Shown here piece after piece: positions 17,860 through 43,939 of a stretch of DNA of 43,939 nucleotides. The stretch's first letter is position 1. Every line of letters begins with the position of its first letter. Under the pieces are notes generated by a model. That model ran no database searches. It worked only from the letters and a program-made list of their open reading frames with translations, and was not told the origin of the DNA. The translations under genes and the position numbers were made by a program. This DNA comes from Euryarchaeota archaeon UBA550 (lineage in GTDB: Archaea; Thermoplasmatota; Poseidoniia; Poseidoniales; Poseidoniaceae), in contig DAYA01000075.1 of NCBI GenBank assembly GCA_002506705.1, forward strand, positions 1 through 43,939. The letters are read 5' to 3'.

Positions 17860-17921
17860 GACTTTCCACTAGTATGCTATTCTTGAATGATTTGAAGGAT
17901 GATGAGGTTACCGCCCCAATC

Positions 17922-23141: not shown

Positions 23142-23648
23142 ATGCCGAGGCTGAAACTAACCGCTATCGACGAAGGTTACAATGTCGTGGTGTCAACTAG
23201 GCTACTTGGTGCAGACGACCCGAGCTTAGTTTACGATGCAATATTGAAATTATTTCCAGATTTCACCTGTGGTCTCCCTGAAAACCCAAAATTCCCCAGC
23301 GAACAAGATGACATATTGGCATCTGATAATGTAAGCATGCAAACATTCCTAGAGGTTATTCACAATCAGTTTATTCTTGACACTGCCCTGGACTACATGT
23401 CAGCAAACCTAGATGAGAATGGAACAGTGTTTCACATTTCGAGGCAGGCTGCAATGGCCGGGAAGGTCGCTTTCCCACTTCCAGGAGAAAACCCACTAGG
23501 CGGCCTAATTACAATAGAAATCGAAGGTGATAATCTGGGCGATTGGCTTGAAGCTGCTACTTGGCATAGCGGCCGTGAAAACATACCGAGAAGAATTGGT
23601 GATGAGTTTTCTATGCTAAGCGATGGTGATGCTTCAACCTGGCACTGA
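23142..23648 (+). CDS. UPF0201/COG1931 family protein (putative RNA-binding, DUF54-like)
   Basis: SMQTFLEVIHNQFILDTALDYMSANLDENGTVFHISRQAAMAGKVAF...NPLGGLITIEIEGDNLGDWLEAAT matches the conserved blocks of archaeal UPF0201 proteins as I remember them (HKQAA-VG--SF, SPLGAI, DWLAP-T). It has a ~28 aa C-terminal extension that overlaps the convergent gene. Confidence 0.6.
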   Translation: MPRLKLTAIDEGYNVVVSTRLLGADDPSLVYDAILKLFPDFTCGLPENPKFPSEQDDILASDNVSMQTFLEVIHNQFILDTALDYMSANLDENGTVFHISRQAAMAGKVAFPLPGENPLGGLITIEIEGDNLGDWLEAATWHSGRENIPRRIGDEFSMLSDGDASTWH

Positions 23649-26164: not shown

Positions 26165-29100
26165 TTACTTACTATTTTGTAGATATTGGTGACCATAATG
26201 GTTCCATTGTTCCATAGTCCATCCTTCTGGCAAGCCAGTTGGAGGCAATGGAGGTGTAGCGCTGCCAGCACCTTGTGACAGAGGCGGAGCATTCTGCACA
26301 GGAGCTACAGGGGCGGCTTGCTGGATTTCAGGAACCATCTTTGTATCCATGGTTTCAATAACCTCAGCGGTCTGGTCTGATTCATCTACTTCCTCGCCAC
26401 GGCGAATTCTGCGCATCTGTACCATTGTCCAAACAGCAAACGACATTGATACCAATGCAATCAGATACATGATAACTGATAGCTGTGAATCTGCAACCTG
26501 GTTCGCAAGTGCAGTTCCATCTCTTTCAACTTCTTCTTTTACAAGGAGTGGTGAGATTGAGATTCTTTCTTTCTCTACTCCTGAGTCTAGAAGTAGTATC
26601 CTGTGTTCTAGCGTGTCATCTACTGCTCCGTCAGCGGTAGCGTCCAGCCTAACTTGTGCCTTCTTCCCACTAGAAATTTCAATTGACGAAGAGGAGATTG
26701 TTGCCCAGTCATCACCCGAAACAAGTCTCTGTAGAACAAATGTTACAGCTCCTGATGCTCCAGTGTTTCTAGCTTCGATGGTTAGTGTTACTGCTTCATC
26801 TGGATTTGGAGTTGGGTTAGACCATTCCCATGTTGTATCCGCCGCTCTCAGACTAACTTCAGGACCTGTCAAGGCCAGTGGCCAAGATGCCAATGGGTCA
26901 GAGACAGTATTTCCATCACTGTCGTAAGGATTTCCTGACTCATCTGAACCTGTAACCCAAATGTCGATTGTGTAAGATGGAAGGAGCATGGTAGCACCTC
27001 CATCTGTCAAGTCAAGATATCCCGTCCAGAAGAATTGATCCTCGAATGGTGTAGTATCCGGTAATGGAGATGACCCTCTGCTGATTTCAGCCTCGCCTGC
27101 CCTAACAAGGTAATGCAATACTGCAGGATCTTCTAAAGAGAATCCTTGATCATCTCGTGTTTCGAGCATGACTTGCAAGTTGTTTGCTAGGGATATCGGA
27201 ATTTCCTGATTAGGTTCAATTCCGCCTAAGGTTACGGCGTGAATTGTTGGTCTCTCACTATCGACTGCCAATCGGAGTCTTGGTTTGAACTCGGATTCAT
27301 CTTCAGCGAGTCCGGGCAGGTCTGTCAGTTTAGCACGTAGGTCGAGGTGGCCACTCCTGACATCTGGCACAAGCATGTCAATACTGAAGTATCCACCCTC
27401 TCTGCTTGTAGTTGTCCATTCATTTTCAAAATCCCCAAGTGATATTGTGAAAGTGCCTGCTGGAGCAGGAGTCTCATCCTCTGAGAAAATTACTCTTCCA
27501 CTGAAGCGTAGAGCTTGCCCCGCACCGATTAGAGTTTCATCAAATTCAGGATTGTAATGGTTGGTTCCATCTCGCAATTCGATTGCAAGAATGTGACCTG
27601 GCTGAGTATCAAAGCGTAAGTCATTATCAAGGCTCCACAAATCATTACCCAGTCCGGCTTTGTGTATGTTACAAGGAAGTTCTATGTCAATTCCACAGGA
27701 CTTATCCTCAATCCAGACCTTTGGAATGAAGTGCTCATTACCGTTCGTGTCCCAAACCTCTGGGAAGTTCCAAGTAAGTTGGAATTTAATCGATACAATC
27801 ATTCTAGATTGGCTATCTGGGTCCAAAATAATCGAAGAGTATAGATTGGAAACTGCTAATCCCGTACCTCCACTCTCGAGATGCATCTGTGGCATTCCTT
27901 CCGAGCTTTGTGAAATGTAAGCAAAAATTGAGGTTTCATCATCATCGAAATCTCCGGCTAAAGCCAAATGCACGAATTCTACGTCCCACCATCCGTTGAT
28001 ATCTGAAATCATGAAGGTTGCAGTGTATGGAATTCCAGGATGTAATGGAGCCATATCATCGTGCCCTGTTATGGTTGAGTTATCTACATCCATAATCGGT
28101 TCAAACTCCTCGCGTATTGTGTACCATGATAGAGAGTTATCCCATTCGGGTTTGACTTCACCAGGTTTGTCCCCACAGAATCCTCCAGGTTCTATGTCAC
28201 AAACTGGGGAACCACCCATGGCAATGACGTTGTCTTGACCATCTTTACCCGTTACATAAAAGGAAACCTTGTCTCCATGTACAAGCATTGAATCATCGAT
28301 TAATCCGTTGAATACATTCAATCCGCCTGTTAAAATCTCAGGCGTAGTTAACGTCTTAGATCTGTATTCGATAGGTTCGGGTAGTCCATTGAAATTCGAG
28401 TCATCACACCTCTCGTGAACTCCGGCTTCGCATCCAATCCAATAGTGCAGGTCAACAGTTTGTGGTGGGTCTACAGAATCTTGGATTATGATTTCAATCG
28501 CTTGACCACCTGGCGAAGGAGGTCCTTTGTGCATCTCCGAGGAGATTTCTGGACTTGCAAATAGGACAAGTGGAGAATTACCGTCAAAAATCAACTTTAC
28601 TGTATTGTACCCTGGATTGACGTAGGTGGAACCGTTTTCGAGATCAACAACTTCCACGTAAAGTACCATGCCACCTGGTGTTGATTCGATTGGAGAGCTA
28701 AAGGTCATGTTATATTGGCCAAACCCAGGATTACCTTCAGTATGAAGTACAGTAGGTTCTCCGATAGGGTCACCATCATAGGTTACGTTTTGACCAATAA
28801 CTCTGAGTGTAAATTCACCTGCTCTTGGTGAGAATGCTGAGTTTTCAAAGTTGATTCCTCCAGTGATTGAGAGATTTAATCCCCCTCGAACCCAATCTCC
28901 AGAATACAATTCTCTTCCTGTTTCCTCCCAGACCCTCATACCATCTAGCTGGATATCGTTCTCAATGTTCAGAGCGAGCGTGTCTGTTGTCCAACTATTC
29001 ACTTGTGGACCTAGGTCATCGCTCAAGGAAACAATTGCTTCCATCTTCCTCTCATCATCCCATGTCCAATTAACTCTAAGTGGCATCTTAACCGATACTA

Positions 29101-31619: not shown

Positions 31620-34600
31620 TCATGATGTGTTTCGACTATCGTATCGTATTGGTGAAGAATCACCACGCATTCCATCTTCTTCGTCGTCCTTTACTTCGAA
31701 CCAATCTACTAGCCAATCTCCATCGGTGTCCCAATTAAGAGGATCACTACCTTCTGCGATGTGGTCATCATCAAGGTCCAACAAGTACCAACCAAACTCG
31801 TGCTCGCCAAGGTCAACCGCAGGAGCGCGGTTTGTGCTTCCAGTGTAATACAAATCCCAGTTATCTGTGACATCTCCTGAACACAACAAAACATCATTTC
31901 CAGTGTCTAAGACAAGGAAATCTGTATCCATGTCATCGATTATTAATGCATAACTTAGGTCATCGATATTTTTCTTGTTCATACCGAGATAATTTGTCTG
32001 ATCTTCTGTGGATTCACCCAAACCTAGTGTGAAAGCTCTGAAATGCCACCACTCTGTAATTGGCGAGCCATTCCATGTTTCTCCAGACAGCCTTACAGAG
32101 TCTGGAGAGTCTAAATTTGGATTTGCAACCGCAAAGAATTCCATGAAATTGGTGTAAGCAGTGTATTCACAAGAAGCACCAGAGCAGTCCCAATTTCCAT
32201 CTTGGTCTGGGTCCTCATTAGCATCTAGAGGGTCCCTTGGGTCAAAGGTTGCCCAAGTCCAACCCAACTCTGGACGGGATAGTGTTCCAGCATCCTGTGA
32301 CAAAGGTCTGCAGGAAACTGTTGAAGAGGTACAAGCCCCACCTGTACCAGGGTCTATCCACTGAACTTCAACCTTCAATCTAGATGAGAAATTGTCGTTT
32401 GATTCATTCCAGCCTTTTTCGTACTCATACCAATCTGGCAGCATATCGCCATCAGTGTCGTTATCCATTGGATTCGTTCCATACTTGAAGACCTCTCTGC
32501 CATCTGAAAGATTCCAATCACGGTCATGGGAAACTACCTGGCCTGAACTGAGTAAAGTGTTGAATGTGACCGCATCATTATCCGAATCATTTGTGTCAGG
32601 TCTAGTACCGTTTAGATACTCCATTAAGTTGGTAAACGGTAAGTCTCCTATTCCACTTTGTATTACTTCTCCAGATGGCGTAAATTCTCTATTTTCCCAG
32701 TTACCTTGAGGAGCTGGAATATCGAATGAAGTTCGTCCATACCAGCCGTCACTGTCAGGGTCGTAGTTTACGTCAAATGGATTAACTGGATTTGTTGACC
32801 AATGATTTTGTGTGGTGGGGTCCGGCAAACCGTAAACGGCGTAACAGAACTCCCAACCGTCATCGATACCATCCTGGTCTGAGTCAGAATTAGTTGGGTC
32901 CGAAATACCAAACAAGGTTCTGTTAAAGGTGTTTGAATCTGCCGAATTAATCTTCATCATTCTTGCAGCAGAAATTGAGTCTTTACCAACAAAAGTGTTG
33001 AAGATTGCTCGTCTTGCTTCCGCCTCTGTGTAACCCTCCTCAACATAAGCATCGATAGTATCATCACCAAATCCAATCAACCCGGATCCGGTTGTAAGTC
33101 GCTGAGAGAACTTACCGTAAACTCGAGATTCATATTCGCGCTTATTTGTAAACTGTTCCTCGAGAGAAATGTTACCATCTCTATCGCAATCTACCGAATC
33201 CATATCACTATCCAACCACTGGTCTGAATCAATCAATGGGTTCATCGACCAGCGATTGTTTTCCAAGTCCCAACTTGTGAACCAATATTCGTAACCATCA
33301 ATCATTCCGTCGTCATCTGTGTCAGCGATTGTTGGATCGGTTATTCCCATCAGAGTTGAGATGAAATTATTGGCAATACCTGTCGATTGCCACTCGGTAA
33401 ACTGATCCAAATGCCTCTTTCCACGCTGCCCTTTATCGAGGATAATTGTATACACCCTTTGTGCCTTTTGTGTCGGATCATTTAAATCGCCATCAATGTG
33501 CAATAACGGCGCATCAATTGGGTGACTTTCTCCATTTTCAGGATTGGTTGTAACAAGAGAAAACTCTTGAGCATCTGTGAGAGCATCGTCATCTGCGTCG
33601 AATGAACCATCGCCTGGAACTAGAGGATTTAGAGTCCAAGTCTGTGCTGTATCATTCCATGCTGTGAACATTAGCTCCAATCCATCAAGGAATCCATCGC
33701 CATCAGTGTCTGGGTTTGTTGGATCAGTGGTCCAGCCAGAGACATTGATTATGTCCTGTCCAACAAATGATCCAAATGATTCAGTGTTTGTTATTCCTGC
33801 CCATTGTTGAATTGTATATCCAGCTCCGATTGTAGTTACATACCACTGAGGACTCGTTCGATTAGCATTAGTTTCGGAAAGTTCTGGAGAGATGCTGTTG
33901 TACTCTTCCCAATTACTCATTCCGTCATCATCTGAATCATCCCAGCGGTCTTCTGAATTAAGTGGGTCTAAGCTCCATTTAGAGTCTAATAATTCCCATC
34001 TAGCGTACCAAATTTCCCAACCATCCGGCATTCCATCAGAATCACTGTCTGCATCTGTAGGGTCGCCTGTAAGAATGCCATCTCCAAAGTTATCCTCTGG
34101 CGCGCCCCAATCGGAGATATTCCTAAACAAGTCTGTAGAGAAATTGTTTGGAAGTTCTTCGCCGTCTAGTGTCATATTTCCATCAAACAAATCATCACGA
34201 ATATTGTATTCTAACCAATTAACAAATGCCTCGTTTTCTTCAATAACACCATTGTGATTGATATCATAGCCATCCCCGTCAGGGTTTTCAAATGCATCAC
34301 TTCCGTTGAGTGGGTTTATTCCGACTCGAGAAACATCCCAGGTACAAGCACCTCGTGCCTCCCAACCATCTGGCAAGCCATCGCCGTCTGAATCTCTATT
34401 GTTGGGATCTGGCTCTACCCAGAGACCAACAGCAGATTCTGTTTCAAAGTGACTCTCGAGTAGGTCTCCAATCAGTCCTGCATCCTTGACTAGCGACCAC
34501 TGGTATTCACAAAGATTCGTCAAACCATCACCGTCTGCGTCCCATTCTGCATCGTTAGGGTCGCTTGGATCCATGGTCCAATTATTTGAGCCTGTGAATG

Positions 34601-37307
34601 ATGAACCAATCCATCTCCTATGCTCTAATTCCCAGCCATCCGGCATTCCATCGCCATCAGAATCCGGGTTGGTTGCGTCAGTACCTGAATCGATTCCTAG
34701 AGATTGGAGATATGTGTTGTTTGCAGCAAGACCTGCAGCATCATCACACACGTGCTCGAAATCATACTGGTTAGTGTAGTGACAATTCAGAGGAGTTACT
34801 TCATGGAATATGCCGAAGTATTCTGCTCCGTCACCAACCCCGTCACCATCTGTATCAACCACACGAGGGTCGGTTGCATTGTATCCATTTGCAGTTGTGG
34901 CAGTATATCTGAACTCATCCAAATTCCTCCACAATCTTTCATTGATTGGATCGCTATCGAGATTGACACCATCTGCATCAGCGTCAAGAAGTGCATCCCA
35001 AGGGTCGGTTGGGTCTAAGCCATACCTGACTTCCCAACCATCCAACATTCCATCTGCATCTGAGTCATTTGCCATTGGATCCATCAGTTCGAGATTCGAG
35101 AATTTTCCTGGTCCAATGCCAACAAAAATCTTGTCAACCCCTTCAACTTGATGGACTATTGCTGCTGAAATATAACCTGGAATCCACTCTTGATTTGTCA
35201 TTCCATAAACGGCAGCATATCCGCCATTTATCGACCACATACCCCATCCTGATCCAACTATGAGCTCGTTTCCAGTTGAGTAAATAGAGGAAATATCGTT
35301 TGCAAAGTCAACTGTCTCTCCATCTACACCTTGGTGTTCTAAGTCGCCACCAAAAGTGATTAGTCCGGAAAGAAGGTCATATCGATGTAGTCCCGAAGGA
35401 GTTCCAATCCATACTACTTGCTCTTGGCCCCCGTCTGGCCCGTCACCAAGTAGAGCGTTTACGTGTGCTGGGTTCTTGTCAACTTCGGCACCTATGGTTC
35501 TGAGTTCATCAATATCTGTAGCGATTAGAGTAGGTTCCGGAGAGAAGTAAAATCTCCAATTAGGTGTTGCTGCATCTCTAGCAGTGGTTGTTTCAACAGT
35601 CAGCAATCCTACATCTGTTCCTACAAACAGAGTCAGAGAACCTCCTGTCGCATCCACATGTACAATAGAGGTCGCTGTAGCATTCCCTGTGTTTAATGCA
35701 TTTGTGATTCCGGTTCCAACACTCAGTTGTGACACGGAAATCTCGTTAATTTGGAAAACAGAACCGAATCCAGAATACCCAAGTGCGAGGACATAATCAT
35801 CCCCGCCATCTGCAATCAACTTTGCACCGGCAGTGTACCTTCCAGGGTAGAATTCCCATTGGCTGATTGGCTCGATTTCACCCTCGTTGTATTCTGCAAT
35901 CCAAACTCCTGCTTCAGTTACCATAACCACATGATTCTCTAAAACAATCATGTCATGCAGATCGTGTCCTTGAGGCAATTCATAATCGGTTGAAACATCG
36001 TTTTCGAAGTCGATTATTGAAATACCTAACTTAGTACCAACCCACAACCTTTCATCGTCATCGTGGAATCCTCTTATGTCGTGGTGCATTACAGATACTT
36101 CGTCTTCATCCGCTTCTTGGGATAGAATGTATTCTGTGTAAGTTCCCTCAGTCGCACTGAGATCTGCCGATCTCATCCCTGATTTCACCATGTTTCCATC
36201 GTCTAAGTGCACGAAGTATTCTTCAAGAGTGGATAATTGTTCACCGAGGGCTAATGCTTCTTTCGAGCGTTGTAAATCAAGACTGATAATTCCATCTCTA
36301 TTGGCATCCCAACCGTCGTTATCTAGATCAATCAATGCATTAGAACGATTCAGTGGGTCAAGACCAAAGTGGATTTCCCAACCATCCGTGATACCATCTC
36401 CGCTAGATGGGAATAAACGACGGTGCTTAACACCGTCATAGTTGAATCTGTCACTATCATCTTCAATTGGGTTGGTACCCAGCCAAACGTATTCATCGAT
36501 GACGCCATCAGTTCCGTTTCTGGCACAGGCATCAAGAATGTTGGTTAGTTTGGTAGAGTTACTGTTTTCTGAGATAAATGGCCACTCACTCAATACCGAT
36601 GACTCTGGATTTGGGGCATGACATCTAAGTCCATCCAGTTCGTTTGTCCAATTTGCAGGTGCACCGTAGAGGTATTCCTCAGGAGAGGTAAGTAACTCAT
36701 TCACACTCATGAATCCATCACGGTTTACATCGAATCCATCGTCATCAGGATCTAAATCAGCATCACTTGCGTTCAATGGGTCAAACATTTCACAGACGTA
36801 TCTCTGTTCTTCGGTATCAAATCCACCGAGTTTTTCGCACATGTGTGCCTCATAGCCATCCGGCATTCCGTCTCCATCGGTATCTGCAACCCTAGGGTCG
36901 AGATACCAACGTTCACCAGATTCGTTAATCACTCCTGTAAGCCCCCTTGTAAATCCTGGGTCAACACATTCTGCTGGGTAAGGCCAACAATATTCCTCCG
37001 TAGCATTGAGGCCATCTAGGTCGATGTCAACGTAAGCATCGGAAGCATCGTCTTTATCCAACCCTTTCATCGCTACAGCCCTGTCATCAGGGGAAGAGAA
37101 ATTTATCCACTCGCTAAACAAATTCTCATGCACATCTGGAATATTGTCTCCATCTGAATCGGTAGCCGGAGGCCTTTCACCTTCCGTCAAGTTGGGATTG
37201 GTTGTACCCACGTTAGAGATAGCGGGTAATTGTGAAACGAAAAACAAACCTAGTACCACGAGAACAGTCATGAGAAGCGTTGATTGAGAGCGTCGCATTG
37301 TCATCAC
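31620..37307 (-). CDS. Giant (1895 aa) secreted protein: >20 thrombospondin type 3-like Ca-binding repeats flanking a Reg_prop-like beta-propeller
   Basis: - Signal peptide: MRRSQSTLLMTVLVVLGLFFVSQLPAIS.
- D-x-D-x-DG-x-x-D-x-(W/Y)-E motifs occur throughout: DSDGDNIPDVHE, DTDGDGMPDGYE, DSDADGMLDGWE, DSDGDGMPDGWE, DSDGDGLPDGWE, DSDSDGMPDGWE, DTDGDGFLDGLE, DTDDDGMIDGYE, DSDQDGIDDGWE, DTDGDMLPDWYE, DTDGDWLVDWFE and others.
- Propeller blades at aa ~405-740 (35088-36095): LWVGTKLGISIIDF, LFVGTDVGLLTVE, VVWIGTPSGLHRYD.
- No TM anchor.
- The track start is GTG 37305-37307. The ATG at 37296-37298 has AGGTGAT 4 nt upstream and is the likelier start. Confidence 0.9.
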   Translation of the reverse strand: MMTMRRSQSTLLMTVLVVLGLFFVSQLPAISNVGTTNPNLTEGERPPATDSDGDNIPDVHENLFSEWINFSSPDDRAVAMKGLDKDDASDAYVDIDLDGLNATEEYCWPYPAECVDPGFTRGLTGVINESGERWYLDPRVADTDGDGMPDGYEAHMCEKLGGFDTEEQRYVCEMFDPLNASDADLDPDDDGFDVNRDGFMSVNELLTSPEEYLYGAPANWTNELDGLRCHAPNPESSVLSEWPFISENSNSTKLTNILDACARNGTDGVIDEYVWLGTNPIEDDSDRFNYDGVKHRRLFPSSGDGITDGWEIHFGLDPLNRSNALIDLDNDGWDANRDGIISLDLQRSKEALALGEQLSTLEEYFVHLDDGNMVKSGMRSADLSATEGTYTEYILSQEADEDEVSVMHHDIRGFHDDDERLWVGTKLGISIIDFENDVSTDYELPQGHDLHDMIVLENHVVMVTEAGVWIAEYNEGEIEPISQWEFYPGRYTAGAKLIADGGDDYVLALGYSGFGSVFQINEISVSQLSVGTGITNALNTGNATATSIVHVDATGGSLTLFVGTDVGLLTVETTTARDAATPNWRFYFSPEPTLIATDIDELRTIGAEVDKNPAHVNALLGDGPDGGQEQVVWIGTPSGLHRYDLLSGLITFGGDLEHQGVDGETVDFANDISSIYSTGNELIVGSGWGMWSINGGYAAVYGMTNQEWIPGYISAAIVHQVEGVDKIFVGIGPGKFSNLELMDPMANDSDADGMLDGWEVRYGLDPTDPWDALLDADADGVNLDSDPINERLWRNLDEFRYTATTANGYNATDPRVVDTDGDGVGDGAEYFGIFHEVTPLNCHYTNQYDFEHVCDDAAGLAANNTYLQSLGIDSGTDATNPDSDGDGMPDGWELEHRRWIGSSFTGSNNWTMDPSDPNDAEWDADGDGLTNLCEYQWSLVKDAGLIGDLLESHFETESAVGLWVEPDPNNRDSDGDGLPDGWEARGACTWDVSRVGINPLNGSDAFENPDGDGYDINHNGVIEENEAFVNWLEYNIRDDLFDGNMTLDGEELPNNFSTDLFRNISDWGAPEDNFGDGILTGDPTDADSDSDGMPDGWEIWYARWELLDSKWSLDPLNSEDRWDDSDDDGMSNWEEYNSISPELSETNANRTSPQWYVTTIGAGYTIQQWAGITNTESFGSFVGQDIINVSGWTTDPTNPDTDGDGFLDGLELMFTAWNDTAQTWTLNPLVPGDGSFDADDDALTDAQEFSLVTTNPENGESHPIDAPLLHIDGDLNDPTQKAQRVYTIILDKGQRGKRHLDQFTEWQSTGIANNFISTLMGITDPTIADTDDDGMIDGYEYWFTSWDLENNRWSMNPLIDSDQWLDSDMDSVDCDRDGNISLEEQFTNKREYESRVYGKFSQRLTTGSGLIGFGDDTIDAYVEEGYTEAEARRAIFNTFVGKDSISAARMMKINSADSNTFNRTLFGISDPTNSDSDQDGIDDGWEFCYAVYGLPDPTTQNHWSTNPVNPFDVNYDPDSDGWYGRTSFDIPAPQGNWENREFTPSGEVIQSGIGDLPFTNLMEYLNGTRPDTNDSDNDAVTFNTLLSSGQVVSHDRDWNLSDGREVFKYGTNPMDNDTDGDMLPDWYEYEKGWNESNDNFSSRLKVEVQWIDPGTGGACTSSTVSCRPLSQDAGTLSRPELGWTWATFDPRDPLDANEDPDQDGNWDCSGASCEYTAYTNFMEFFAVANPNLDSPDSVRLSGETWNGSPITEWWHFRAFTLGLGESTEDQTNYLGMNKKNIDDLSYALIIDDMDTDFLVLDTGNDVLLCSGDVTDNWDLYYTGSTNRAPAVDLGEHEFGWYLLDLDDDHIAEGSDPLNWDTDGDWLVDWFEVKDDEEDGMRGDSSPIRYDSRNTS

Positions 37308-37488: not shown

Positions 37489-38307
37489 ATGTCCCTAACA
37501 TTCACCCACCTTGGAACTGGTAGTCGCGGTAATGCGACTCTGGTAGAGAGTGGTGATGCAAAAGTACTGATTGACCAAGGTTTCTCTGGCAAACAACTCG
37601 AAACTAGGCTTGCGAGGATGGAAATCAATCCAACAGAAATTGATGCGATTGTTCTAACCCACCATCATGGCGATCACGGAGGAGGCGCATCAATCGCTCA
37701 GAGGAGATGGAACATACCCATCTTTTGCAATGACAGAACAGCGACTGCACTGAATCTCGACTTGAAAGGGGTTCAACTTTTTGAAAGTCTAGAAGCACTA
37801 AATTTCGCAGACGACTTAGCACTATTACCCGTACCAGTACCTCACAGCGGCGCAGACAATGTCGCATTCATTGCAAGCCATAGAGGCGAGAGGGGAGCTG
37901 TAATCACAGATTTAGGCTCATGGACTGACGAATTGGTAACCCATGTTGCAGGATGCCAACATATCTCAATAGAAGCGAACTATGACCACAACAGGTTATG
38001 GAACGGTCCTTATCCTAGACGACTGAAAGACCGCATTGCGGGAAGAGGAGGTCACCTTTCCAACGACCAAACAGGACAATTCCTTTCACAAGTAGTTGAC
38101 AAAAATACTCGGTCCCTTGTTCTGACTCACTTATCAGAAAAGAACAATGCACCGCATATTGCTGAATCTAGCGTACTGTACCACATCGACGAAATGTTCG
38201 AAGGCGATATTCAGATTTCTCTACAAGATGGACCTGAATTCTCACACCACATCGGACAAACAGAAAGTGAGAGAGTTGCTCGGCGAGGATTAACACTTCG
38301 AGGATAA
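37489..38307 (+). CDS. Metallo-beta-lactamase fold hydrolase, YycJ/WalJ-like
   Basis: LGTGSRGNATLVESGDAKVLIDQGFSGKQLE...IDAIVLTHHHGDHGGG carries the HxHxDH motif. The overall N-terminal pattern resembles B. subtilis YycJ-type MBL exonucleases. 272 aa. Confidence 0.8.
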   Translation: MSLTFTHLGTGSRGNATLVESGDAKVLIDQGFSGKQLETRLARMEINPTEIDAIVLTHHHGDHGGGASIAQRRWNIPIFCNDRTATALNLDLKGVQLFESLEALNFADDLALLPVPVPHSGADNVAFIASHRGERGAVITDLGSWTDELVTHVAGCQHISIEANYDHNRLWNGPYPRRLKDRIAGRGGHLSNDQTGQFLSQVVDKNTRSLVLTHLSEKNNAPHIAESSVLYHIDEMFEGDIQISLQDGPEFSHHIGQTESERVARRGLTLRG

Positions 38308-38328
38308 GCCCTGTAAGGGCTTGTTTTT
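38306..38328 (+). terminator. Hairpin AAGCCC-TGTAA-GGGCTT followed by GTTTTT
   Basis: 6 bp stem starting inside the TAA stop (38305-38307), followed by a T5 run at 38324-38328. This is intrinsic-terminator-like. It lies 40 nt upstream of the first pilin-like gene. Confidence 0.5.
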
Positions 38329-38367
38329 GGTGAAACCCTAAGAGGGTGGTTCACTCTCTCCTACACA

Positions 38368-39405
38368 ATGAGGTCACAACGCAAGTCCGATAGTGACCTC
38401 GCAGTCAGTGAAGTCATCGGTGTTGTGATGCTACTTGCGATGGTGATCACAATGATGGGAGGGGTGTTTGTATTCCTTACCCCATATGTCAATGATTTTC
38501 AAGACAATACCGCATGGTCAAACGCAAATGGGATTGCTGAAAGGCTAGACGGAAGGATTGATGTCGTTGCAGGCGCAAGTGCTGACACCGGACTTAGAAC
38601 TACAATTCCCCTAACTATGAGCTCAATTTCTCCTATCATTAGTGCAGAAGTGTGGACTGTCTCAGCAGATTTGACTGCGGAAGAGATTGTCACAGTCGAG
38701 TACATTAATCAAACTACATTCAGTGTTACCTCGGAAAACGAAACAGCCGACCGTGCCATAATTTGGACTGAAAGCGGGGAAGTCGAAATAACATTCAATG
38801 AAACTTACGAAGAGGTTTTGATAACCCATAACTTGAGTGTTGCAGACATATACATCGTAACAATATTCGATGGGGAAAACGAGATTCATAAGCATGCAAA
38901 GATACCAATCTCAGGACTAATGGTAAAGACGAAAGTACAGACAGGTGAGCATTCTATTGGACTACTGAACGACGCTCGTTACGACAAATTCTCTGATGAA
39001 ACCTGGAGCATAACTTCATTTCCTGACATGAATATAGAAGAGTTATTCGACGGCACAATGAGGGCTAGTTTGTCTCTGAGAGACGTAGATACTGCCGGTG
39101 CGATTCCTGACGGCAGAAACGCAGTCTTCGACGTCCGCTCTGAAGGCCCAATTACTCTCTTTAGTGGTGATGCATGGAACTTCAGATTTACATTTGAATC
39201 ATCATTGGGCCCAACTGTCGCCCCACAGATGACTGAAGGATGGCTAACCGACTACAACCTTCACAGAGCGTCTAACACTTTAGACCAGCATAGAGGTATC
39301 AGTCCGTGGTTAAGGGCAAGCGGAATCGATGGTCTGACAATAGACCACGGTAATTCTGTTATCGATTTAGAAATCGAATTACAATTAGTGGAGGTTAGCA
39401 AATGA
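38368..39405 (+). CDS. Archaeal type IV pilin-like protein (class III signal peptide, DUF1628/Pilin_N-type N-terminus), 345 aa
   Basis: The N-terminus MRSQRKSDSDLAVSEVIGVVMLLAMVITMMGGVFVFL matches the archaeal Pilin_N pattern (charged n-region, A-V-S-x-V-I-G-V, ~20 aa hydrophobic helix). The stop overlaps the next start (ATGA at 39402-39405). Confidence 0.65.
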   Translation: MRSQRKSDSDLAVSEVIGVVMLLAMVITMMGGVFVFLTPYVNDFQDNTAWSNANGIAERLDGRIDVVAGASADTGLRTTIPLTMSSISPIISAEVWTVSADLTAEEIVTVEYINQTTFSVTSENETADRAIIWTESGEVEITFNETYEEVLITHNLSVADIYIVTIFDGENEIHKHAKIPISGLMVKTKVQTGEHSIGLLNDARYDKFSDETWSITSFPDMNIEELFDGTMRASLSLRDVDTAGAIPDGRNAVFDVRSEGPITLFSGDAWNFRFTFESSLGPTVAPQMTEGWLTDYNLHRASNTLDQHRGISPWLRASGIDGLTIDHGNSVIDLEIELQLVEVSK

Positions 39406-41450
39406 TTCGCAATAACCTCCGCAGAGACGAGGAAGCAGTAAGCGCTGCTGTAGCCACGGTCCTACTCTTCGGCGGAGTAATTTCAATTATTGGAATTATG
39501 TTACTTTCATTAATGCCAGTTATACAAGAATTAGAGGGTTCTCTCAAGAGGAACGACATGCAAGCTCAAATGGAAATAATGGCACATGAGGTCACATTAC
39601 TTTCTGAATCCGGATTACCCGGCGATTCAAGTCAAGTAGAACTTATTCCGGTCGATGGAGAACTTAGATGGGATAGATTCAGGGGAGGTATGTGGTACTC
39701 TGCATCTTGGTATGAAGGTGATACTTTCAGAATTCAAGGAGCTTTAGACTTGGATAGAAATATTGAGGTTAGGCATGCTGAAAGCAACGTACAAGCGATT
39801 TGCTACGAAGACATGAGACTAGGTCCGGATAGACCATTCATTTTTACACCTAATAATCAAACTGATACAGTATTAGTAACGCCCAAACACGGTTTGACAA
39901 TACCGCTTGGTCCTGTAGAAATTGAACACGCTGGGATAGAACACACCCTTTCGATAGGAGAAGTCATGAGTTTAGATTCAAACAGCCAAATCAAATCAAG
40001 TCATGATTTGGTTGGATTACAGTTGAAGGGAGATTCAGGGGTTGCACTAATGCCTCCCTCCAAGCCAGACCCCGCAACCGGTAAGGGGCAGCATTGGGCA
40101 ATTCCTTTACCATCGGGAGAAACGACAATTGAAGTCTTTGCAAACGATGATATTCTCGTTCAATGGCATACTCTCACCGATTCTGGGCAAGAGGCTGTAC
40201 CCCAAACCAATGCGGTTAGAATAGCGAATTCATGGACAAAAACATTCAACCTTTCAGAGATTAGTTTAGTGGAGATAGTTACTGACGTAGATGCTCATCT
40301 GATAATTTACCATGGAGATTCTGGCAAAACATCTCTACTGGGAGAAGAGGGTAATTATCTCTCTAAGCACTTCATAGCGCCTTCTCAATCTGGAAATTTG
40401 TCATTCTCTAATCCTAGTCAGAATGCTGCAACGATTACATGGAAAAATGGTGGTATCTCAGTGCCTGCCAACCAAACTATTGAAGTTGAGTGGCCTCCTT
40501 CAAACATCGATAGCGCTGCAATCTTAGAAAGTAGCGAGAATGTCATTATTCAGTGGAAACTAAATGGCAAGGGAATGACATTGTTGCCAGCCACAGATAC
40601 AGGCCAAATCACTGGTCTAGAATTCATTGAAGATAATTCACAGACGACTATCAACTACTCCTCTGAATATGATGACTACAAATCAATTTTAGCAAAAGAT
40701 GGAAATTCAGGAGTTCTTGCATTAGAGGATGATGGAGCCATGCGTTGTGTTGCAATAGACCAAACTGCATCAGGATGGATTTCAACAACTCTGCCGTGGA
40801 AATCAATGAATGGTATACCTGAAGGGCAAATCATCACTGCTTGGAGAGATGGGGATCACCCGGCAAGTATCGAGATAACTTTGATCGGGACTGAAGGAGA
40901 TGCAACCCACGCCAACCTAGCCACTGCATGGGCATTCCATATCTCAAGACTAACTTACGAATTTGATACCTCGATTACTGGACTGGAGGTGGCATGGTCC
41001 GCTGGTGCAGTTGTTACAAATCATCCCGAGTTGGACCCGACTATACTGGTCGGACCAACAGATAGACAAGGTCCCGGACCAAGGTTTAGCGCAACAATAC
41101 CTTCTATGCACCCTACAAAAACATCAGTTACTGGTAGCGGTATAATGGATCTCGACATTGAATTATCCATGAGAGAAAGTTTAGCGTCAACTACAGCATA
41201 TGATGTTAGAAGAGGATGGGTAGGACCATACGGAGATGCGGTTGCTTCTTGGGCAAGCACGAGCCTAGAGACTTCCGAAGACTGGATAGTTAACCCTGGA
41301 AGAATTGACTTACTAACTGACTATGTTGGCTGGGTCCCTGTTCCAACAGTTGGACCTAGTGAAGCTGTATGGCATACAGCAGGTCAACCAATACAATTCA
41401 ACCTGCAAATAAGCAGCCTGAATGTTGAAATTTCGGAGGCTGGGTCATGA
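39402..41450 (+). CDS. Large pilin-like protein with class III-type N-terminus, 682 aa
   Basis: N-terminus: MIRNNLRRDEEAVSAAVATVLLFGGVISIIGIMLLSLMP. GGAGG (39390-39394) lies 7 nt upstream of the ATG. The stop overlaps the next start (ATGA at 41447-41450). Confidence 0.6.
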   Translation: MIRNNLRRDEEAVSAAVATVLLFGGVISIIGIMLLSLMPVIQELEGSLKRNDMQAQMEIMAHEVTLLSESGLPGDSSQVELIPVDGELRWDRFRGGMWYSASWYEGDTFRIQGALDLDRNIEVRHAESNVQAICYEDMRLGPDRPFIFTPNNQTDTVLVTPKHGLTIPLGPVEIEHAGIEHTLSIGEVMSLDSNSQIKSSHDLVGLQLKGDSGVALMPPSKPDPATGKGQHWAIPLPSGETTIEVFANDDILVQWHTLTDSGQEAVPQTNAVRIANSWTKTFNLSEISLVEIVTDVDAHLIIYHGDSGKTSLLGEEGNYLSKHFIAPSQSGNLSFSNPSQNAATITWKNGGISVPANQTIEVEWPPSNIDSAAILESSENVIIQWKLNGKGMTLLPATDTGQITGLEFIEDNSQTTINYSSEYDDYKSILAKDGNSGVLALEDDGAMRCVAIDQTASGWISTTLPWKSMNGIPEGQIITAWRDGDHPASIEITLIGTEGDATHANLATAWAFHISRLTYEFDTSITGLEVAWSAGAVVTNHPELDPTILVGPTDRQGPGPRFSATIPSMHPTKTSVTGSGIMDLDIELSMRESLASTTAYDVRRGWVGPYGDAVASWASTSLETSEDWIVNPGRIDLLTDYVGWVPVPTVGPSEAVWHTAGQPIQFNLQISSLNVEISEAGS

Positions 41451-41917
41451 CGAGTAGATTGGTTGAGGACGAATCTGGAGCAAGTACAGAACTTGGCTAC
41501 ATTTTCACATTCATGCTCGGAGTATTGTTCCTGTCAATGTTTAGTGTATGGGCGTTTGGCCTAGAAACCTCAACAAGAGAAAATTGGAATACAACCGCTG
41601 TTGATGTAAACATGGCAGATATTGCTGCTGCGGTCGAAAGGGCCGACACTGCAAGCAGAGAAGACTCCAGTGTAAGTTATGCAGAAGTTGTGACATGGAG
41701 ATTAACCGAAGCTGATGAGACAGAATTTGTTCTCACCCTAGATGACACAGGATTATCACTTGACCATAGCGAGAATGAACTGGATAGGGAGGTTTCGATA
41801 TCAGGAACAGGATATGGCACATATGATGGAAGAATCAATCTTTCAGGAACCGCAGAAATTTGGATCGTCTACCACGAAGGCGTGACCTATCTATCAACAA
41901 CTAGACCAGATTTCTGA
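41447..41917 (+). CDS. Small pilin-like protein with class III-type N-terminus, 156 aa
   Basis: The N-terminus MTSRLVEDESGASTELGYIFTFMLGVLFLSMFSVWAF resembles the (A/G)-(V/S)-S-x-x-L-G-Y-(V/I) N-termini of haloarchaeal pilin-like DUF proteins. GGAGG (41435-41439) lies 7 nt upstream of the ATG. Confidence 0.6.
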   Translation: MTSRLVEDESGASTELGYIFTFMLGVLFLSMFSVWAFGLETSTRENWNTTAVDVNMADIAAAVERADTASREDSSVSYAEVVTWRLTEADETEFVLTLDDTGLSLDHSENELDREVSISGTGYGTYDGRINLSGTAEIWIVYHEGVTYLSTTRPDF

Positions 41918-43939
41918 TTATCTGCCCATCACAGCAGTATGTACCATCATCTGTACTTCCCGCATTCTAGTCTGGGCACCTAATTCTCTGAAAACCGATA
42001 ATGCTCTCTGAAGGTATTCCATCCTACGTTGTCTATCTGGGGCAACTCCGCCTAATCTCGCTAGTAGTTCACCGATTTGCATTCTCAAATCGTTTGCTTC
42101 GGAGATAACTAGTGCTTCTCGGTATCTCTCCAACGCTTCTTCGATTCTACCGCTGTCTTGGAGAACCTCGCCCAACAAAATTGATACTTCCACCAAGGCA
42201 AGCGGGTCTCCTGCTTCTCCCATTGTTGATAGGGCATCTGTATAGTGATGCAAAGCCAAATCAGAATCGCCAGTCTTTGCGTAATATCTTCCAAGAACAG
42301 CTCTAGCTCTTGCATGTAATATTGCATCATCACTTGATTCAGACCTCTCATAGGAGGATAAAGCGTGGTCTCTTGCTCTATCACTCTCACCCAAATCTAG
42401 TAACGCTCTAGCCAATACAATCTGAGCAGGAATTAATTCTGAAGAATCATTACTAGAAAGAATGCTCTCGACTTCACCATAAGCCTCCAATGCCTTTGCT
42501 TTGTCTCCGTTTCTTCGGAGGATATAGCCCATGTTGTTGTAAGAGCGAGCAGCCCCTATTGCGTCGCCCATGGATATGAATAATTCCAGAGCATTTCTGT
42601 GCATTCCAAGGCTTCCTTCTGAATCGCCTCTCTTCAGAGCAATGTCTGCTAAATTCGAAACAATGTCTGCGATAACGTCGTCTAAACCTGCTGCTTCGGC
42701 TGGTGGTTTCGCTTGGTTGAATGCTTCCTCAGCTTCATCGAAACGACCGAGAAGGGCTAGTACTTCTCCCCTGAGTCTATCGACCCTACATGCGCTGTCT
42801 GCACCTACTGATTTTGTATCGATGGATTCCAATAGGCCCAACAATTCAATGTGTCCTTCTTTGATTAAGTCTCTACCTTGCTCTACCACTAATTTTGTAG
42901 CATCTTCGTGCCTTGAAGAAGAAATTAGATGGTAGATTAACTCAAGAGCAATTTGGCTTGATTTGGTTTGTTTACTGTACCAAGCAACTGCTTTGTTGTG
43001 AAGATCTTCTCTGGATTGTTTGTCAAGACTTTGGAGAAGGAATTCTCTAATTAGATCGTGAACATCATAAGTGCCTGAATCAGCATTGCGTGCTAGACCA
43101 GATTCGACTAGTGAATCTAGTTCATCAGTATTCAGACCTTGTTCTGTTAGAGCCTCTAATTCGATAGGTTCACGGAACACAGATAGAGCCCCAAGTAATC
43201 TCTTCTGCTCACCCGAAAGTTTTGAGAAAATCTCGATATTTACATAATTTTCAAGAGATTCATGGAACGCACCTGCTGATGCTCCACGGTTAATCAATTC
43301 CAAGACTAAAGGATGGCCTCTACTCAAGGAGTGTATGTACAGTAATTTTTCTTGGTCCAAGTCATCAAATGCAGAGAGTAGGGACCTTGTTGATTCTTGG
43401 TCCAATCCTTCTAGTGGCAGAACCAATGAAACAATTCTTCCGTCTGCATCCTTCAGAGGAACGACCTCCTTGAAGGAGCGAGAGAAGATTACCAGTCCAA
43501 CGTCACCTTCACACTCGACAAGACCTCTGGACAATGCTTGAATTGTTTGATGCAGAGTCTTATCACTCACTTTGTGGTAATCGTCGATTACGATTAGAGC
43601 GGGTGAATTAGCAAGAGAATCAACCATTATTCTTGCTGCATCAGCAGACTTTGGAACCGGAGTAGCAGAGATGTAATCTGCTAACATTGAATCTCCAATA
43701 TTCGATAACCAATCAGCAATGCTTTCCAAGAATGCTCGACTTCCCTCCCAATCCTGACATCTATGATACATCAAGTTCCTTCGATGCATAAATGATTCAA
43801 TCACTTTTGCTGCCATAGAAGTTTTTCCTATACCCGCTATTCCAGGTACCATCAAAGTCGTTGACCTTGCTTCAAGCAGGTTGACCATGTTTTCTAATTC
43901 GGTTGACCGACCATAGAAATGCCTCAATCTTGGCAAGTC
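41918..43939 (-). CDS. STAND-class NTPase (AAA_16/NB-ARC-like) with C-terminal TPR array; N-terminus outside the window
   Basis: FYGRSTELENM. Walker A PGIAGIGKTS (43820-43843). Walker B LIVIDDYH. GHPLVLEL (GxP motif). Roughly 280 aa of TPR-like repeats follow (ARSYNNMGYILRRNGDKAKALEAY and others). The frame stays open to position 43939 and the track start is only a TTG, so the true N-terminal (effector or DNA-binding) domain is not visible. Confidence 0.8.
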   Translation of the reverse strand, partial: DLPRLRHFYGRSTELENMVNLLEARSTTLMVPGIAGIGKTSMAAKVIESFMHRRNLMYHRCQDWEGSRAFLESIADWLSNIGDSMLADYISATPVPKSADAARIMVDSLANSPALIVIDDYHKVSDKTLHQTIQALSRGLVECEGDVGLVIFSRSFKEVVPLKDADGRIVSLVLPLEGLDQESTRSLLSAFDDLDQEKLLYIHSLSRGHPLVLELINRGASAGAFHESLENYVNIEIFSKLSGEQKRLLGALSVFREPIELEALTEQGLNTDELDSLVESGLARNADSGTYDVHDLIREFLLQSLDKQSREDLHNKAVAWYSKQTKSSQIALELIYHLISSSRHEDATKLVVEQGRDLIKEGHIELLGLLESIDTKSVGADSACRVDRLRGEVLALLGRFDEAEEAFNQAKPPAEAAGLDDVIADIVSNLADIALKRGDSEGSLGMHRNALELFISMGDAIGAARSYNNMGYILRRNGDKAKALEAYGEVESILSSNDSSELIPAQIVLARALLDLGESDRARDHALSSYERSESSDDAILHARARAVLGRYYAKTGDSDLALHHYTDALSTMGEAGDPLALVEVSILLGEVLQDSGRIEEALERYREALVISEANDLRMQIGELLARLGGVAPDRQRRMEYLQRALSVFRELGAQTRMREVQMMVHTAVMGR

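What the first reader, a model, noticed from the sequence alone, without database searches (positions are those of the whole stretch)
38368..41917. Three translationally coupled class III signal-peptide (pilin-like) genes with unusually large products and no assembly machinery in view
All three N-termini share one plan: a short charged n-region, a small residue, then a ~20 aa hydrophobic helix.
- ...SDSDLA|VSEVIGVVMLLAMVITMMGG
- ...RRDEEA|VSAAVATVLLFGGVISIIG
- ...EDESGA|STELGYIFTFMLGVLFLSMF

The first is a near-textbook archaeal Pilin_N (DUF1628) sequence. Stops and starts overlap as ATGA at 39402-39405 and 41447-41450. Both internal starts have GGAGG exactly 7 nt upstream, which implies stoichiometric co-translation.

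The product sizes (345, 682 and 156 aa) are far larger than typical major pilins. This suggests minor-pilin or tip-complex proteins, or a non-filament surface structure. No PilB/FlaI-like ATPase, PilC/FlaJ-like platform or PibD/FlaK peptidase gene lies within 44 kb.
Basis: partly seen in the sequence, partly recalled or inferred. Interest (0 to 1): 0.7.

Follow-up and report, generated by a model that had tools for sequence, protein, structure and literature searches.

The report
Pilin-like gene trio of MGII archaea
Three overlapping genes of a marine group II archaeon encode type IV pilin-like surface proteins, one very large; this trio is kept across the whole order and never sits near an assembly motor, so it is a known kind of archaeal surface gene set, but one not yet described in one of the ocean's most abundant archaea.

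Summary
ORFs A (38368-39405, 345 aa), B (39402-41450, 682 aa) and C (41447-41917, 156 aa) overlap by ATGA. B and C each have GGAGG 7 nt upstream.

All three start with a variable charged leader, then a G/A residue, then an invariant ~25-aa hydrophobic stretch. Pfam places A in DUF7289 (above threshold) with a borderline Pilin_N hit, C in DUF7266, and B just below the DUF7289 threshold. AlphaFold models of A and B show a ~60-residue N-terminal helix followed by all-beta domains, the pilin shape.

The window comes from a Poseidoniaceae (MGIIa) archaeon. The trio and about 22 kb of flanking genes are syntenic in ~150 Poseidoniales loci, MGIIb included. No pilus ATPase, platform or peptidase lies within ±10 kb in any of them.

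Best reading: a co-translated set of class III signal-peptide proteins forming a minor-pilin, tip-like or short-stalk surface complex, processed and assembled in trans. Unlinked and large pilins are already known in euryarchaea, so the kind is ordinary. B is a new, order-restricted family. Function, cleavage and assembly machinery remain untested.

The parts
38307..38328 (+). Hairpin (AGCCCT-GTA-AGGGCT, extendable) followed by TGTTTTT, directly after the stop codon of the upstream MBL-fold gene. It is a likely transcript end that separates that gene from the trio.
   Evidence: Sequence. RNA fold gives -18.3 kcal/mol with z = -6.0 against shuffles. A perfect hairpin plus T-tail is kept in only 10 of 73 loci, so it is clade-specific.
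38329..38342 (+). Conserved motif GGTGAAACCCTAAG (consensus GGYSAA-N4-TAAR). The TAAGA centre is 27 nt upstream of the ATG of A. Inferred to be the BRE/TATA-like promoter of a leaderless A-B-C mRNA.
   Evidence: The motif occurs in 74 of 116 Poseidoniales loci at fixed distances, 58 or 77 nt before the -1 codon of A. Promoter function is inferred, not shown.
38368..39405 (+). Gene A, 345 aa. Pilin-like protein with a 12-aa leader, site DLA|VSEVIG, an N-terminal helix and a ~280-aa all-beta ectodomain with 4 N-x-S/T sequons.
   Evidence: ORF. Pfam: DUF7289 29.8 bits (GA 27), Pilin_N 23.9-25.1 (GA 25.2), DUF7266 21-23. Family counts are 24/32, 16/32 and 11/32. AF2 pLDDT 75.7, helix 8-68 then strands. 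Site conservation. Sequons.
39390..39394 (+). GGAGG Shine-Dalgarno-like site 7 nt upstream of the start of B, inside the end of A.
   Evidence: Sequence. An SD-like 4-mer is kept upstream of B in 62 of 63 loci.
39402..41450 (+). Gene B, 682 aa. Large pilin-like protein with a 12-aa leader, site DEEA|VSAAVATVLL, helix 7-70, a ~610-aa multi-domain beta ectodomain, two invariant Cys (134, 449) and 5 sequons. The N-terminal ~285 residues are distantly related to A.
   Evidence: ORF. DUF7289 22.2-23.5 bits, below GA, over residues 12-88; 19/27 orthologues hit. AF2 pLDDT 86.7, pTM 0.86. hhalign A vs B gives probability 93%, E 2.9e-7 over 277 columns. Only 110 clusters among 1.84 billion representatives match. 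Invariant Cys.
41435..41439 (+). GGAGG Shine-Dalgarno-like site 7 nt upstream of the start of C, inside the end of B.
   Evidence: Sequence. Kept upstream of C in 60 of 63 loci.
41447..41917 (+). Gene C, 156 aa. Small pilin-like protein of the DUF7266 family, with site x[G/A]|A[S/A]TELGY[IV]FTF.
   Evidence: ORF. DUF7266 28.0 bits (GA 27.6) covering profile positions 2-133 of 145; 10/17 orthologues hit. Site conservation. hhalign B vs C is weak and limited to the N-terminal helix (67%, E 5e-5).

Best explanation
A, B and C are three type IV pilin-like proteins with class III signal peptides, made from one operon of a Poseidoniaceae (MGIIa) archaeon.

Shown:
- The operon has its own conserved upstream motif.
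- B and C start at ATGA overlaps behind GGAGG sites.
- Each protein has a variable 11-12-aa charged leader, a G/A at the predicted -1 position, and then an order-wide invariant hydrophobic segment.
- In the models of A and B this segment opens a ~60-residue helix that carries beta-rich ectodomains of about 280 aa (A) and 610 aa (B). C, about 120 aa beyond the hydrophobic segment, was not modelled.

Inferred:
- A PibD/FlaK-type prepilin peptidase encoded elsewhere removes the leader.
- The three mature hydrophobic helices bundle into a hetero-oligomer.
- This acts as a minor-pilin priming or tip complex, or as a short stalk, of a type IV filament. Its ATPase/TadC platform, and possibly a major pilin, are encoded in trans.
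- The complex displays the large A and B ectodomains for adhesion. This fits its place in a conserved island of giant secreted and surface proteins.
For: Gene anatomy:
- ORFs, overlaps and SD sites are, and they are conserved in 52-62 of 63 loci.

Family hits:
- A hits DUF7289 above threshold and Pilin_N at the threshold. C hits DUF7266 above threshold over the full profile length. B hits DUF7289 just below threshold.
- The hits recur in 24/32, 16/32, 10/17 and 19/27 orthologues.
- Precomputed Pfam tags PF23960 and PF07790 appear on most A orthologues.

Cleavage site:
- Position -1 is A/G in 73/73 for A and for C, and A/G/S in 73/73 for B.
- Positions +1 to +5 are invariant or nearly so.
- Mean column conservation is 0.44-0.61 in the leader, 0.89-0.90 at +1 to +25 and 0.60-0.66 in the rest of each protein.
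- In other genera A reads R-[A/G]|VSEV and B reads [E/D]-A|VS, like the Haloferax PilA sites RA|VS and DA|VS (PMC4371748 table 1).

Structure and relatedness:
- AF2 gives helix 8-68 plus strands for A and helix 7-70 plus strands for B at pLDDT 86.7.
- A and B are distant paralogues.

Precedent:
- Euryarchaeal pilins are often encoded apart from their ATPase/TadC, and large (250-550 aa) all-beta minor pilins are known (PMC4858521 section 11).
- MGIIa genomes carry the archaellum operon plus extra flaI/flaJ/tadC genes (PMC6461757, PMC6336850, PMC6864105).
Against: - No cleavage, filament or complex has been observed.
- No ATPase, platform or peptidase lies within the window, in 7.5 kb further left, in 10 kb further right, or within ±10 kb in ~150 related loci.
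- In the window's genus, position -2 of A (L) and of C (S) is not the charged residue usual for archaeal class III sites.
- Pilin_N for A and DUF7289 for B fall just under Pfam's gathering scores, and the DUF7289 matches cover only the N-terminal third of that profile.
- No candidate major pilin was identified.
- The trio also occurs in Thalassarchaeaceae, most of which are reported to lack the archaellum operon. Whether they keep any type IV machinery is unknown.
- Foldseek finds no pilin-like structural neighbour.
Confidence: 0.55

Rival explanations
1. Non-filament surface complex. The class III signal peptides serve only for membrane insertion and anchoring, as for the sugar-binding proteins of the Sulfolobus bindosome. 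A-B-C then form a membrane-rooted stalk or scaffold. It might hold the anchorless 1895-aa TSP3-repeat protein encoded divergently upstream, without an extension ATPase building a long pilus.
For: - No machinery is linked in any of ~150 loci.
- The trio is present in MGIIb lineages reported to lack archaella (PMC6336850, PMC6864105).
- No major-pilin candidate lies in the operon.
- The ectodomains are very large.
- The neighbours are giant secreted or surface proteins. One has a Sec-type signal and no C-terminal anchor. They are syntenic with the trio throughout the order.
Against: - Synteny covers the whole ~22-kb region and more, so it may reflect general genome collinearity rather than a functional link.
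- The extreme conservation of the mature hydrophobic N-termini (0.89-0.90) is what helix-helix packing in a filament core would also give.
- The bindosome itself needs a dedicated ATPase and membrane protein.
- No interaction evidence exists.
Confidence: 0.27
2. Ordinary uncleaved signal-anchor (type II) membrane proteins whose N-termini merely resemble class III signal peptides.
For: - The -2 residue is uncharged in A and C of this genus.
- Pfam scores are marginal for Pilin_N (A) and DUF7289 (B).
- No peptidase gene is in view.
Against: - The G/A(/S) restriction falls exactly at the boundary between the variable leader and the invariant segment in all three proteins, in 73 orthologues each.
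- Canonical R-[A/G]|V sites occur in other genera.
- There are three independent Pfam pilin-type family hits.
- The TM segment is the most conserved part of each protein, which is unusual for a passive anchor.
- The models show a ~60-residue continuous helix.
Confidence: 0.1
3. Accessory proteins of the archaellum, similar to FlaF/FlaG (ArlF/ArlG). One public annotation of an A orthologue suggests this ('FlaG/FlaF family flagellin').
For: - JGI gives that name to P0188.
- All MGIIa genera have the archaellum operon (PMC6461757).
- C has about the size of ArlF/ArlG.
Against: - A, B and C give no hit to the archaellin family PF01917 even at E<=1.
- The genes are not in or near an archaellum operon in any locus.
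- The trio is kept in Thalassarchaeaceae, where the operon is reported to be mostly absent (PMC6336850, PMC6864105).
- The JGI label probably comes from the generic COG3430/Pilin_N N-terminus.
Confidence: 0.05

Closest known systems
Haloferax volcanii adhesion pilins PilA1-6 (Pilin_N / DUF1628, PF07790), assembled by PilB3-PilC3 and processed by PibD
   Same: - The leader and site are alike: D/R-A|VS-P-VIGV in PilA against D-L-A|VSEVIGV in A and E-A|VSAAVA in B (PMC4371748).
- The weak PDB match of A to 8FJ5, a 'Pilin_N domain-containing protein', aligns this same motif.
- The PilA genes are also unlinked to the ATPase/platform genes.
   Different: - PilA proteins are small major pilins of about 150 aa. 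A is 345 aa and B is 682 aa.
- Pilin_N scores just under threshold for A and does not hit B or C.
- The PilA genes are scattered rather than forming a coupled three-gene operon.
Euryarchaeal 'clade 2' type IV pilus pilin sets: arCOG02911 minor pilins (250-550 aa, all-beta) and the large pilins of the Haloferax PilB4-PilC4 locus. The Pfam families DUF7289 and DUF7266 hit here may correspond to these sets (untested).
   Same: - These are large, FlaFind-type, all-beta pilin-like proteins occurring several per locus (PMC4858521 section 11; PMC4371748).
- A and C reach Pfam's thresholds for DUF7289 and DUF7266.
   Different: - In the described systems at least some sets sit next to their ATPase/TadC. 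Here this is never the case.
- The DUF7289 match covers only profile positions 2-77 of 238, so the ectodomains of A and B are not those of that family.
- B (682-768 aa) exceeds the described size range and is restricted to Poseidoniales.
- The genomic context of DUF7289/DUF7266 in haloarchaea was not checked here.
Bacterial minor-(pseudo)pilin tip complexes: GspI-GspJ-GspK of type II secretion, and PilVWX with the non-pilin adhesin PilY1 of type IVa pili
   Same: This is a resemblance in how it might work. In both cases a small, a medium and a large pilin-like subunit come from adjacent, coupled genes and are thought to form a heteromeric cap. A giant secreted, calcium-repeat, anchorless protein is encoded next door here, as PilY1 is there.
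   Different: - No sequence or fold similarity was found.
- The bacterial operons sit with, or are regulated with, their machinery and a major pilin.
- The analogy rests on general knowledge and not on a test done here.
Sulfolobus bindosome (class III signal-peptide sugar-binding proteins assembled by the Bas system)
   Same: Both involve large non-pilin ectodomains carried on class III signal peptides, which shows that such N-termini need not mean a long filament (PMC4371748, PMC4858521).
   Different: - A, B and C give no solute-binding domain hit.
- The bindosome has a dedicated ATPase and membrane protein. None is linked here.

Membership tests
Archaeal type IV pilin-like proteins (class III signal peptide substrates) | Short charged leader, small residue (G/A, rarely S) at -1, then about 20 uncharged hydrophobic residues at the very N-terminus | tested here: met
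   All three proteins fit. Position -1 is A/G(/S) in 73/73 orthologues of each, and the leader is variable while the segment after the site is invariant. A charged -2 residue is present in B, and in A of other genera (R), but not in A or C of this genus.
Archaeal type IV pilin-like proteins (class III signal peptide substrates) | Long N-terminal alpha-helix followed by a beta-rich globular domain | tested here: met
   AF2 gives helix 8-68 then strands for A (pLDDT 75.7) and helix 7-70 then strands for B (pLDDT 86.7, pTM 0.86). C was not modelled.
Archaeal type IV pilin-like proteins (class III signal peptide substrates) | Leader removed by an A24 prepilin peptidase (PibD/FlaK/EppA) | not testable with these tools
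   No peptidase gene lies in the window or in the flanks. The rest of the genome could not be fetched. MGIIa genomes are reported to carry archaellum operons (PMC6461757, PMC6336850), but none of the papers read lists a prepilin (FlaK/PibD) peptidase for MGII.
Archaeal type IV pilin-like proteins (class III signal peptide substrates) | Assembly by a PilB/FlaI-type ATPase and a PilC/TadC/FlaJ platform | not tested
   None lies in cis in ~150 loci. Extra flaI/flaJ/tadC genes in MGIIa are known only from the literature (PMC6864105).
Pfam Pilin_N (PF07790) | Score at or above the gathering threshold (25.2 bits) | tested here: inconclusive
   A scores 23.9 bits as the full protein and 25.1 bits as residues 1-141. 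16/32 orthologues hit at E<=0.01, and many orthologues carry the precomputed PF07790 tag. B and C give no hit.
Pfam DUF7289 (PF23960) | Score at or above the gathering threshold (27 bits) with a match along the profile (238 positions) | tested here: inconclusive
   A scores 29.8-32.9 bits, above threshold, but matches only profile positions 2-77. B scores 22.2-23.5 bits, below threshold, over the same region. 24/32 A and 19/27 B orthologues hit. Membership therefore holds for the N-terminal module only.
Pfam DUF7266 (PF23928) | Score at or above the gathering threshold (27.6 bits) over most of the 145-position profile | tested here: met
   C scores 28.0 bits over profile positions 2-133 of 145. 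10/17 orthologues hit, with a best E of 1.1e-7. The margin is narrow.
Archaellins and archaellum accessory proteins FlaF/FlaG (PF01917) | Match to the archaellin family, and a location in the fla/arl operon | tested here: not met
   No PF01917 hit at E<=1. No fla genes lie within ±10 kb in any locus.
Bacterial minor pilin tip complexes (GspIJK, PilVWX-PilY1) | Sequence or fold homology to GspI/J/K or PilV/W/X | tested here: not met
   No such Pfam hits. Foldseek against PDB gives no hit at E<=1e-3 for A, and only generic beta-sandwich hits with TM<=0.13 on the query for B. The resemblance is functional only.

The most novel reading that the evidence does not exclude
The trio is a stand-alone adhesion stalk and not part of a conventional pilus. 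On this reading it is a heterotrimeric pilin-like bundle, universal in Poseidoniales. It would dock the anchorless 1895-aa calcium-repeat protein encoded divergently upstream, as PilY1 sits on minor pilins. It would work even in MGIIb lineages that have lost the archaellum, and possibly all type IV extension ATPases. B would then be a new class of giant pilin-like adhesin scaffold.
Probability: 0.15. Interest if true: 0.65.

Novelty: new member of a known kind. Interest (0 to 1): 0.4.

Why it matters
Marine group II archaea are among the most abundant archaea of the surface ocean and remain uncultured. How they attach to particles and algae has so far been discussed only in terms of archaella, thrombospondin-like proteins and flotillin (PMC6461757, PMC6336850, PMC6864105).

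A pilin-like trio that is single-copy, present across the order and embedded in an island of giant surface proteins is a concrete, testable candidate for their attachment apparatus. It also exists in lineages reported to lack archaella. The trio provides:
- defined mature N-termini to look for in metaproteomes;
- a high-confidence model of a 682-aa pilin-like protein with no structural neighbour;
- a case for asking whether class III proteins can work without a linked motor.

In kind it is not new. Unlinked and large pilin-like proteins are established in euryarchaea.

Tried and rejected
- **Plasmid search for annotated haloarchaeal relatives.** tblastn of A and C against PLSDB plasmids found only chance hits or nothing. 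The low-complexity filter probably masks the hydrophobic N-termini.
- **PDB by sequence.** Profile searches with the A, B and C families gave nothing significant. The only suggestive row was 8FJ5, a 'Pilin_N domain-containing protein', at E 1.7 for A.
- **PDB by fold.** Foldseek gave no hit at E<=1e-3 for A. For B it gave only generic jelly-roll or beta-sandwich domains (enteropeptidase, PA5104, glycosidase sugar-binding domains, vicilins) with TM<=0.13 on the query.
- **A versus C.** hhalign was not significant, although Pfam DUF7266 weakly matches A.
- **Literature.** Searches for DUF7289/DUF7266 or for pili in MGII found no description of this trio. The Red Sea metatranscriptome paper mentions a highly expressed MGII DUF1628 gene, but its supplements hold nothing that would identify it.
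- **MGII prepilin peptidase or PilB/TadC.** I found no way to fetch these genes. The tools return only ±10 kb around a query, and I had no MGII sequence of those proteins. Generic motif scans would have been swamped by other taxa.
- **Rejected readings.** Sec-type cleaved signal peptide: there is no A-x-A after the hydrophobic segment, and the helix continues to residue ~68. Archaellum accessory role: see the rival explanations.

Full report
**What is there**

The window has about 44% G+C. Its closest relatives are metagenome-assembled genomes of Candidatus Poseidoniaceae, that is marine group II-a. On the + strand lie three ORFs: A (38368-39405, 345 aa), B (39402-41450, 682 aa) and C (41447-41917, 156 aa). 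The stop of A overlaps the start of B, and the stop of B overlaps the start of C, each as ATGA. GGAGG sits at 39390-39394 and at 41435-41439, in both cases 7 nt before the ATG.

**Upstream and downstream anatomy**

The upstream gene (37489-38307) encodes a cytoplasmic MBL-fold hydrolase. It ends in a strong hairpin followed by a T-run (38307-38328). The fold energy is -18.3 kcal/mol, z = -6 against shuffles, but the element is kept in only 10 of 73 loci.

Immediately after it comes the motif GGTGAAACCCTAAG (38329-38342). A version of this motif, GGYSAA-N4-TAAR, is found at a fixed distance upstream of A in 74 of 116 related loci. Its TAAGA centre lies 27 nt before the ATG of A. I infer a BRE/TATA-like promoter and a leaderless first gene, with B and C translated through SD sites and coupling. 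Only the motif and its conservation are shown; the promoter role is inferred.

Downstream and convergent is a STAND NTPase with TPR repeats. It runs off the window and is 841 aa in L001, where I read its N-terminal ~170 residues as a winged helix-turn-helix domain; Pfam matched only the AAA and TPR parts.

**Are they pilin-like?**

Each protein begins with a short charged leader, a small residue, and a hydrophobic stretch of about 20-25 residues.

*Pfam*
- A matches DUF7289 at 29.8 bits (threshold 27), Pilin_N at 23.9 bits (25.1 for the N-terminal 141 residues; threshold 25.2) and DUF7266 at 21-23 bits.
- B matches DUF7289 at 22-23.5 bits.
- C matches DUF7266 at 28.0 bits (threshold 27.6) along nearly the whole profile.
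- The hits are reproducible across orthologues: DUF7289 in 24/32 A and 19/27 B sequences, Pilin_N in 16/32 A, and DUF7266 in 10/17 C.

*Cleavage site in 73 non-identical orthologues of each protein*
- The residue before the hydrophobic segment is A or G in A (62 and 11), A, G or S in B (67, 5 and 1), and A or G in C (47 and 26).
- Positions +1 to +5 are invariant or nearly so.
- Mean column conservation jumps from 0.44-0.61 in the leader to 0.89-0.90 over +1 to +25. It then falls to 0.60-0.66 for the rest of each protein.
- In other genera, A has the canonical R-[A/G]|VSEV site, the same kind of site as RA|VS and DA|VS in Haloferax PilA pilins (PMC4371748).

*Structure*
- AlphaFold2 gives A a helix at 8-68 followed by an all-beta domain (pLDDT 75.7, pTM 0.69).
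- It gives B a helix at 7-70 followed by about 610 residues of beta domains (pLDDT 86.7, pTM 0.86).
- Profile-profile comparison shows that A and the first ~285 residues of B are distant paralogues (probability 93%, E 2.9e-7). B and C share only the helix.

Together these results meet the sequence and fold criteria of archaeal type IV pilin-like proteins. Cleavage itself cannot be tested here.

**What they are not**

- There is no archaellin-family hit.
- PDB holds no significant sequence relative.
- Foldseek gives no structural neighbour for A, and only generic beta-sandwich or jelly-roll hits for B.
- B is a narrow family. A phmmer search of 1.84 billion cluster representatives found only 110 matches. 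All appear to be B orthologues or fragments of them (full-length ones 610-768 aa). Nearly all genome hits carry Poseidoniales or unclassified-archaeon titles; one (L084) is titled as a bacterium, which I take to be mis-binning.

**Distribution and context**

I fetched about 150 loci from species-level genomes and metagenomes. The gene order is the same in Poseidoniaceae and in Thalassarchaeaceae (MGIIb):
- two giant secreted or surface proteins on the - strand (1790 and 1895 aa);
- the MBL-fold gene, then A, B and C on the + strand;
- the STAND regulator on the - strand;
- a 1446-aa protein (Big_7 domain, predicted C-terminal membrane segment), an S8 peptidase and a 367-aa predicted surface protein, all on the - strand.

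One clade lacks the 1790-aa gene. Identity to the window's proteins falls to about 30-35% for A and B while the order persists. Because genes further out are also collinear, this synteny cannot by itself prove a functional link.

In none of these loci is there a PilB/FlaI ATPase, a TadC/FlaJ platform or an A24 peptidase within ±10 kb. The window's own 44 kb has none, nor do 7.5 kb to its left or 10 kb to its right.

**How it most likely works**

*Shown:* the operon anatomy, the class III-type N-termini with a conserved G/A site, the pilin-like fold, and conservation across the order.

*Inferred:*
- A PibD/FlaK-type peptidase removes the 11-12-residue leaders.
- The three mature hydrophobic helices pack together.
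- The resulting hetero-oligomer acts as a minor-pilin priming or tip complex, or as a short stalk, that exposes the large ectodomains of A and B.
- It is built by machinery encoded elsewhere.

This fits what is known of euryarchaeal type IV pili. Pilins are commonly encoded apart from the ATPase/TadC module, and large all-beta minor pilins exist, such as arCOG02911 (250-550 aa) and the 'relatively large pilins' of the Haloferax PilB4 locus (PMC4858521, PMC4371748). MGIIa genomes are reported to have the archaellum operon and additional flaI/flaJ/tadC genes (PMC6461757, PMC6336850, PMC6864105). I give this reading about 0.55.

**Rivals**

- **Non-filament surface complex (about 0.27).** The class III signal would serve only to root a scaffold, perhaps for the anchorless 1895-aa calcium-repeat protein next door. 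In its favour are the complete lack of linked machinery and the presence of the trio in MGIIb. Most MGIIb lineages are reported to lack the archaellum operon, but I could not check this with the tools.
- **Plain uncleaved signal anchors (about 0.1).** This is made unlikely by the G/A restriction at the conservation boundary and by three pilin-type family hits.
- **Archaellum accessory role (about 0.05).** One JGI label suggests it, but Pfam, the genomic context and the distribution in MGIIb argue against it.

**Novelty and interest**

The kind of gene set is known. The Pfam families that A and C fall into already exist as domains of unknown function, and unlinked or large pilins are established. 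Three things are new:
- this particular trio is a universal, syntenic feature of Poseidoniales;
- B is a new order-restricted pilin-like protein of 680-770 aa with a confident model and no structural neighbour;
- none of the MGII papers in the held library mentions these genes.

I rate it a new member of a known kind, with interest about 0.4. The phyletic test in lineages without archaella could raise that rating.

Noticed in passing
window 4139-5065 (- strand): A 308-aa ORF with no Pfam hit even at E<=10. Its N-terminus, MNWKKLA|AAAAITVVVAAAVWTYLITTYESELG, passes my crude class-III-like filter. It could be a fourth pilin-like protein or simply a signal-anchored protein. It is called as a gene at the same position on two metagenome contigs that carry an identical PheRS-beta protein (L160, L161).
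   Followed up: partly
window 31620-37307 and 26165-31537 (- strand): Two giant ORFs lie divergent from the MBL-A-B-C block. The 1895-aa one has a Sec-type signal, many DxDxDG (TSP3-like) calcium-binding repeats and no C-terminal anchor. The 1790-aa one has a signal peptide and a C-terminal TM anchor. Neither has a Pfam hit above threshold: the 1895-aa ORF gives only a sub-threshold TSP3_bac hit and the 1790-aa ORF none. Both are syntenic with the trio across Poseidoniales, except that clade L088-L092 lacks the 1790-aa gene.
   Followed up: partly
window 41918-43936 (- strand, runs off the window); full gene in L001 12517-15042: A STAND-type NTPase with AAA_16 and TPR (MalT-like) domains, 841 aa; I read its N-terminal ~170 residues as winged-helix-like, with no Pfam match. 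It is convergent with gene C and conserved at 51-99% identity in all loci. It is a candidate regulator of the surrounding surface-protein island.
   Followed up: partly
L001 15096-21998 (beyond the right end of the window): Downstream of the STAND gene lie three more genes: a 1446-aa protein with a Big_7 domain and a hydrophobic C-terminal segment (Beta_helix tagged on its L032 orthologue), a 405-aa S8 (subtilisin-like) peptidase, and a 367-aa protein with a hydrophobic C-terminal segment. The trio therefore sits in a conserved island of more than 30 kb of apparent cell-surface genes.
   Followed up: partly
window 38329-38342: A conserved motif GGYSAA-N4-TAAR lies upstream of gene A in 74 of 116 loci, at fixed spacing. 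It is a likely archaeal BRE/TATA element, and its position implies a leaderless mRNA for A.
   Followed up: partly
window 23611-24558 (- strand): A single ORF fuses a pyroglutamyl peptidase (Peptidase_C15) domain to a NUDIX hydrolase domain, an unusual combination.
   Followed up: no
window 12623-14647 (+) and 17874-19961 (+): Two ORFs of 674 and 695 aa with an N-terminal hydrophobic, signal-like segment and internal or C-terminal hydrophobic segments. The first ends in a sub-threshold zinc-ribbon-like match. Neither has an informative Pfam hit.
   Followed up: no
L084 (contig NZEQ01000036.1): A contig carrying the complete Poseidoniales-type syntenic block is deposited under the title 'Verrucomicrobiales bacterium isolate ARS100'. 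This is probably a mis-binned or mislabelled MGII contig.
   Followed up: no
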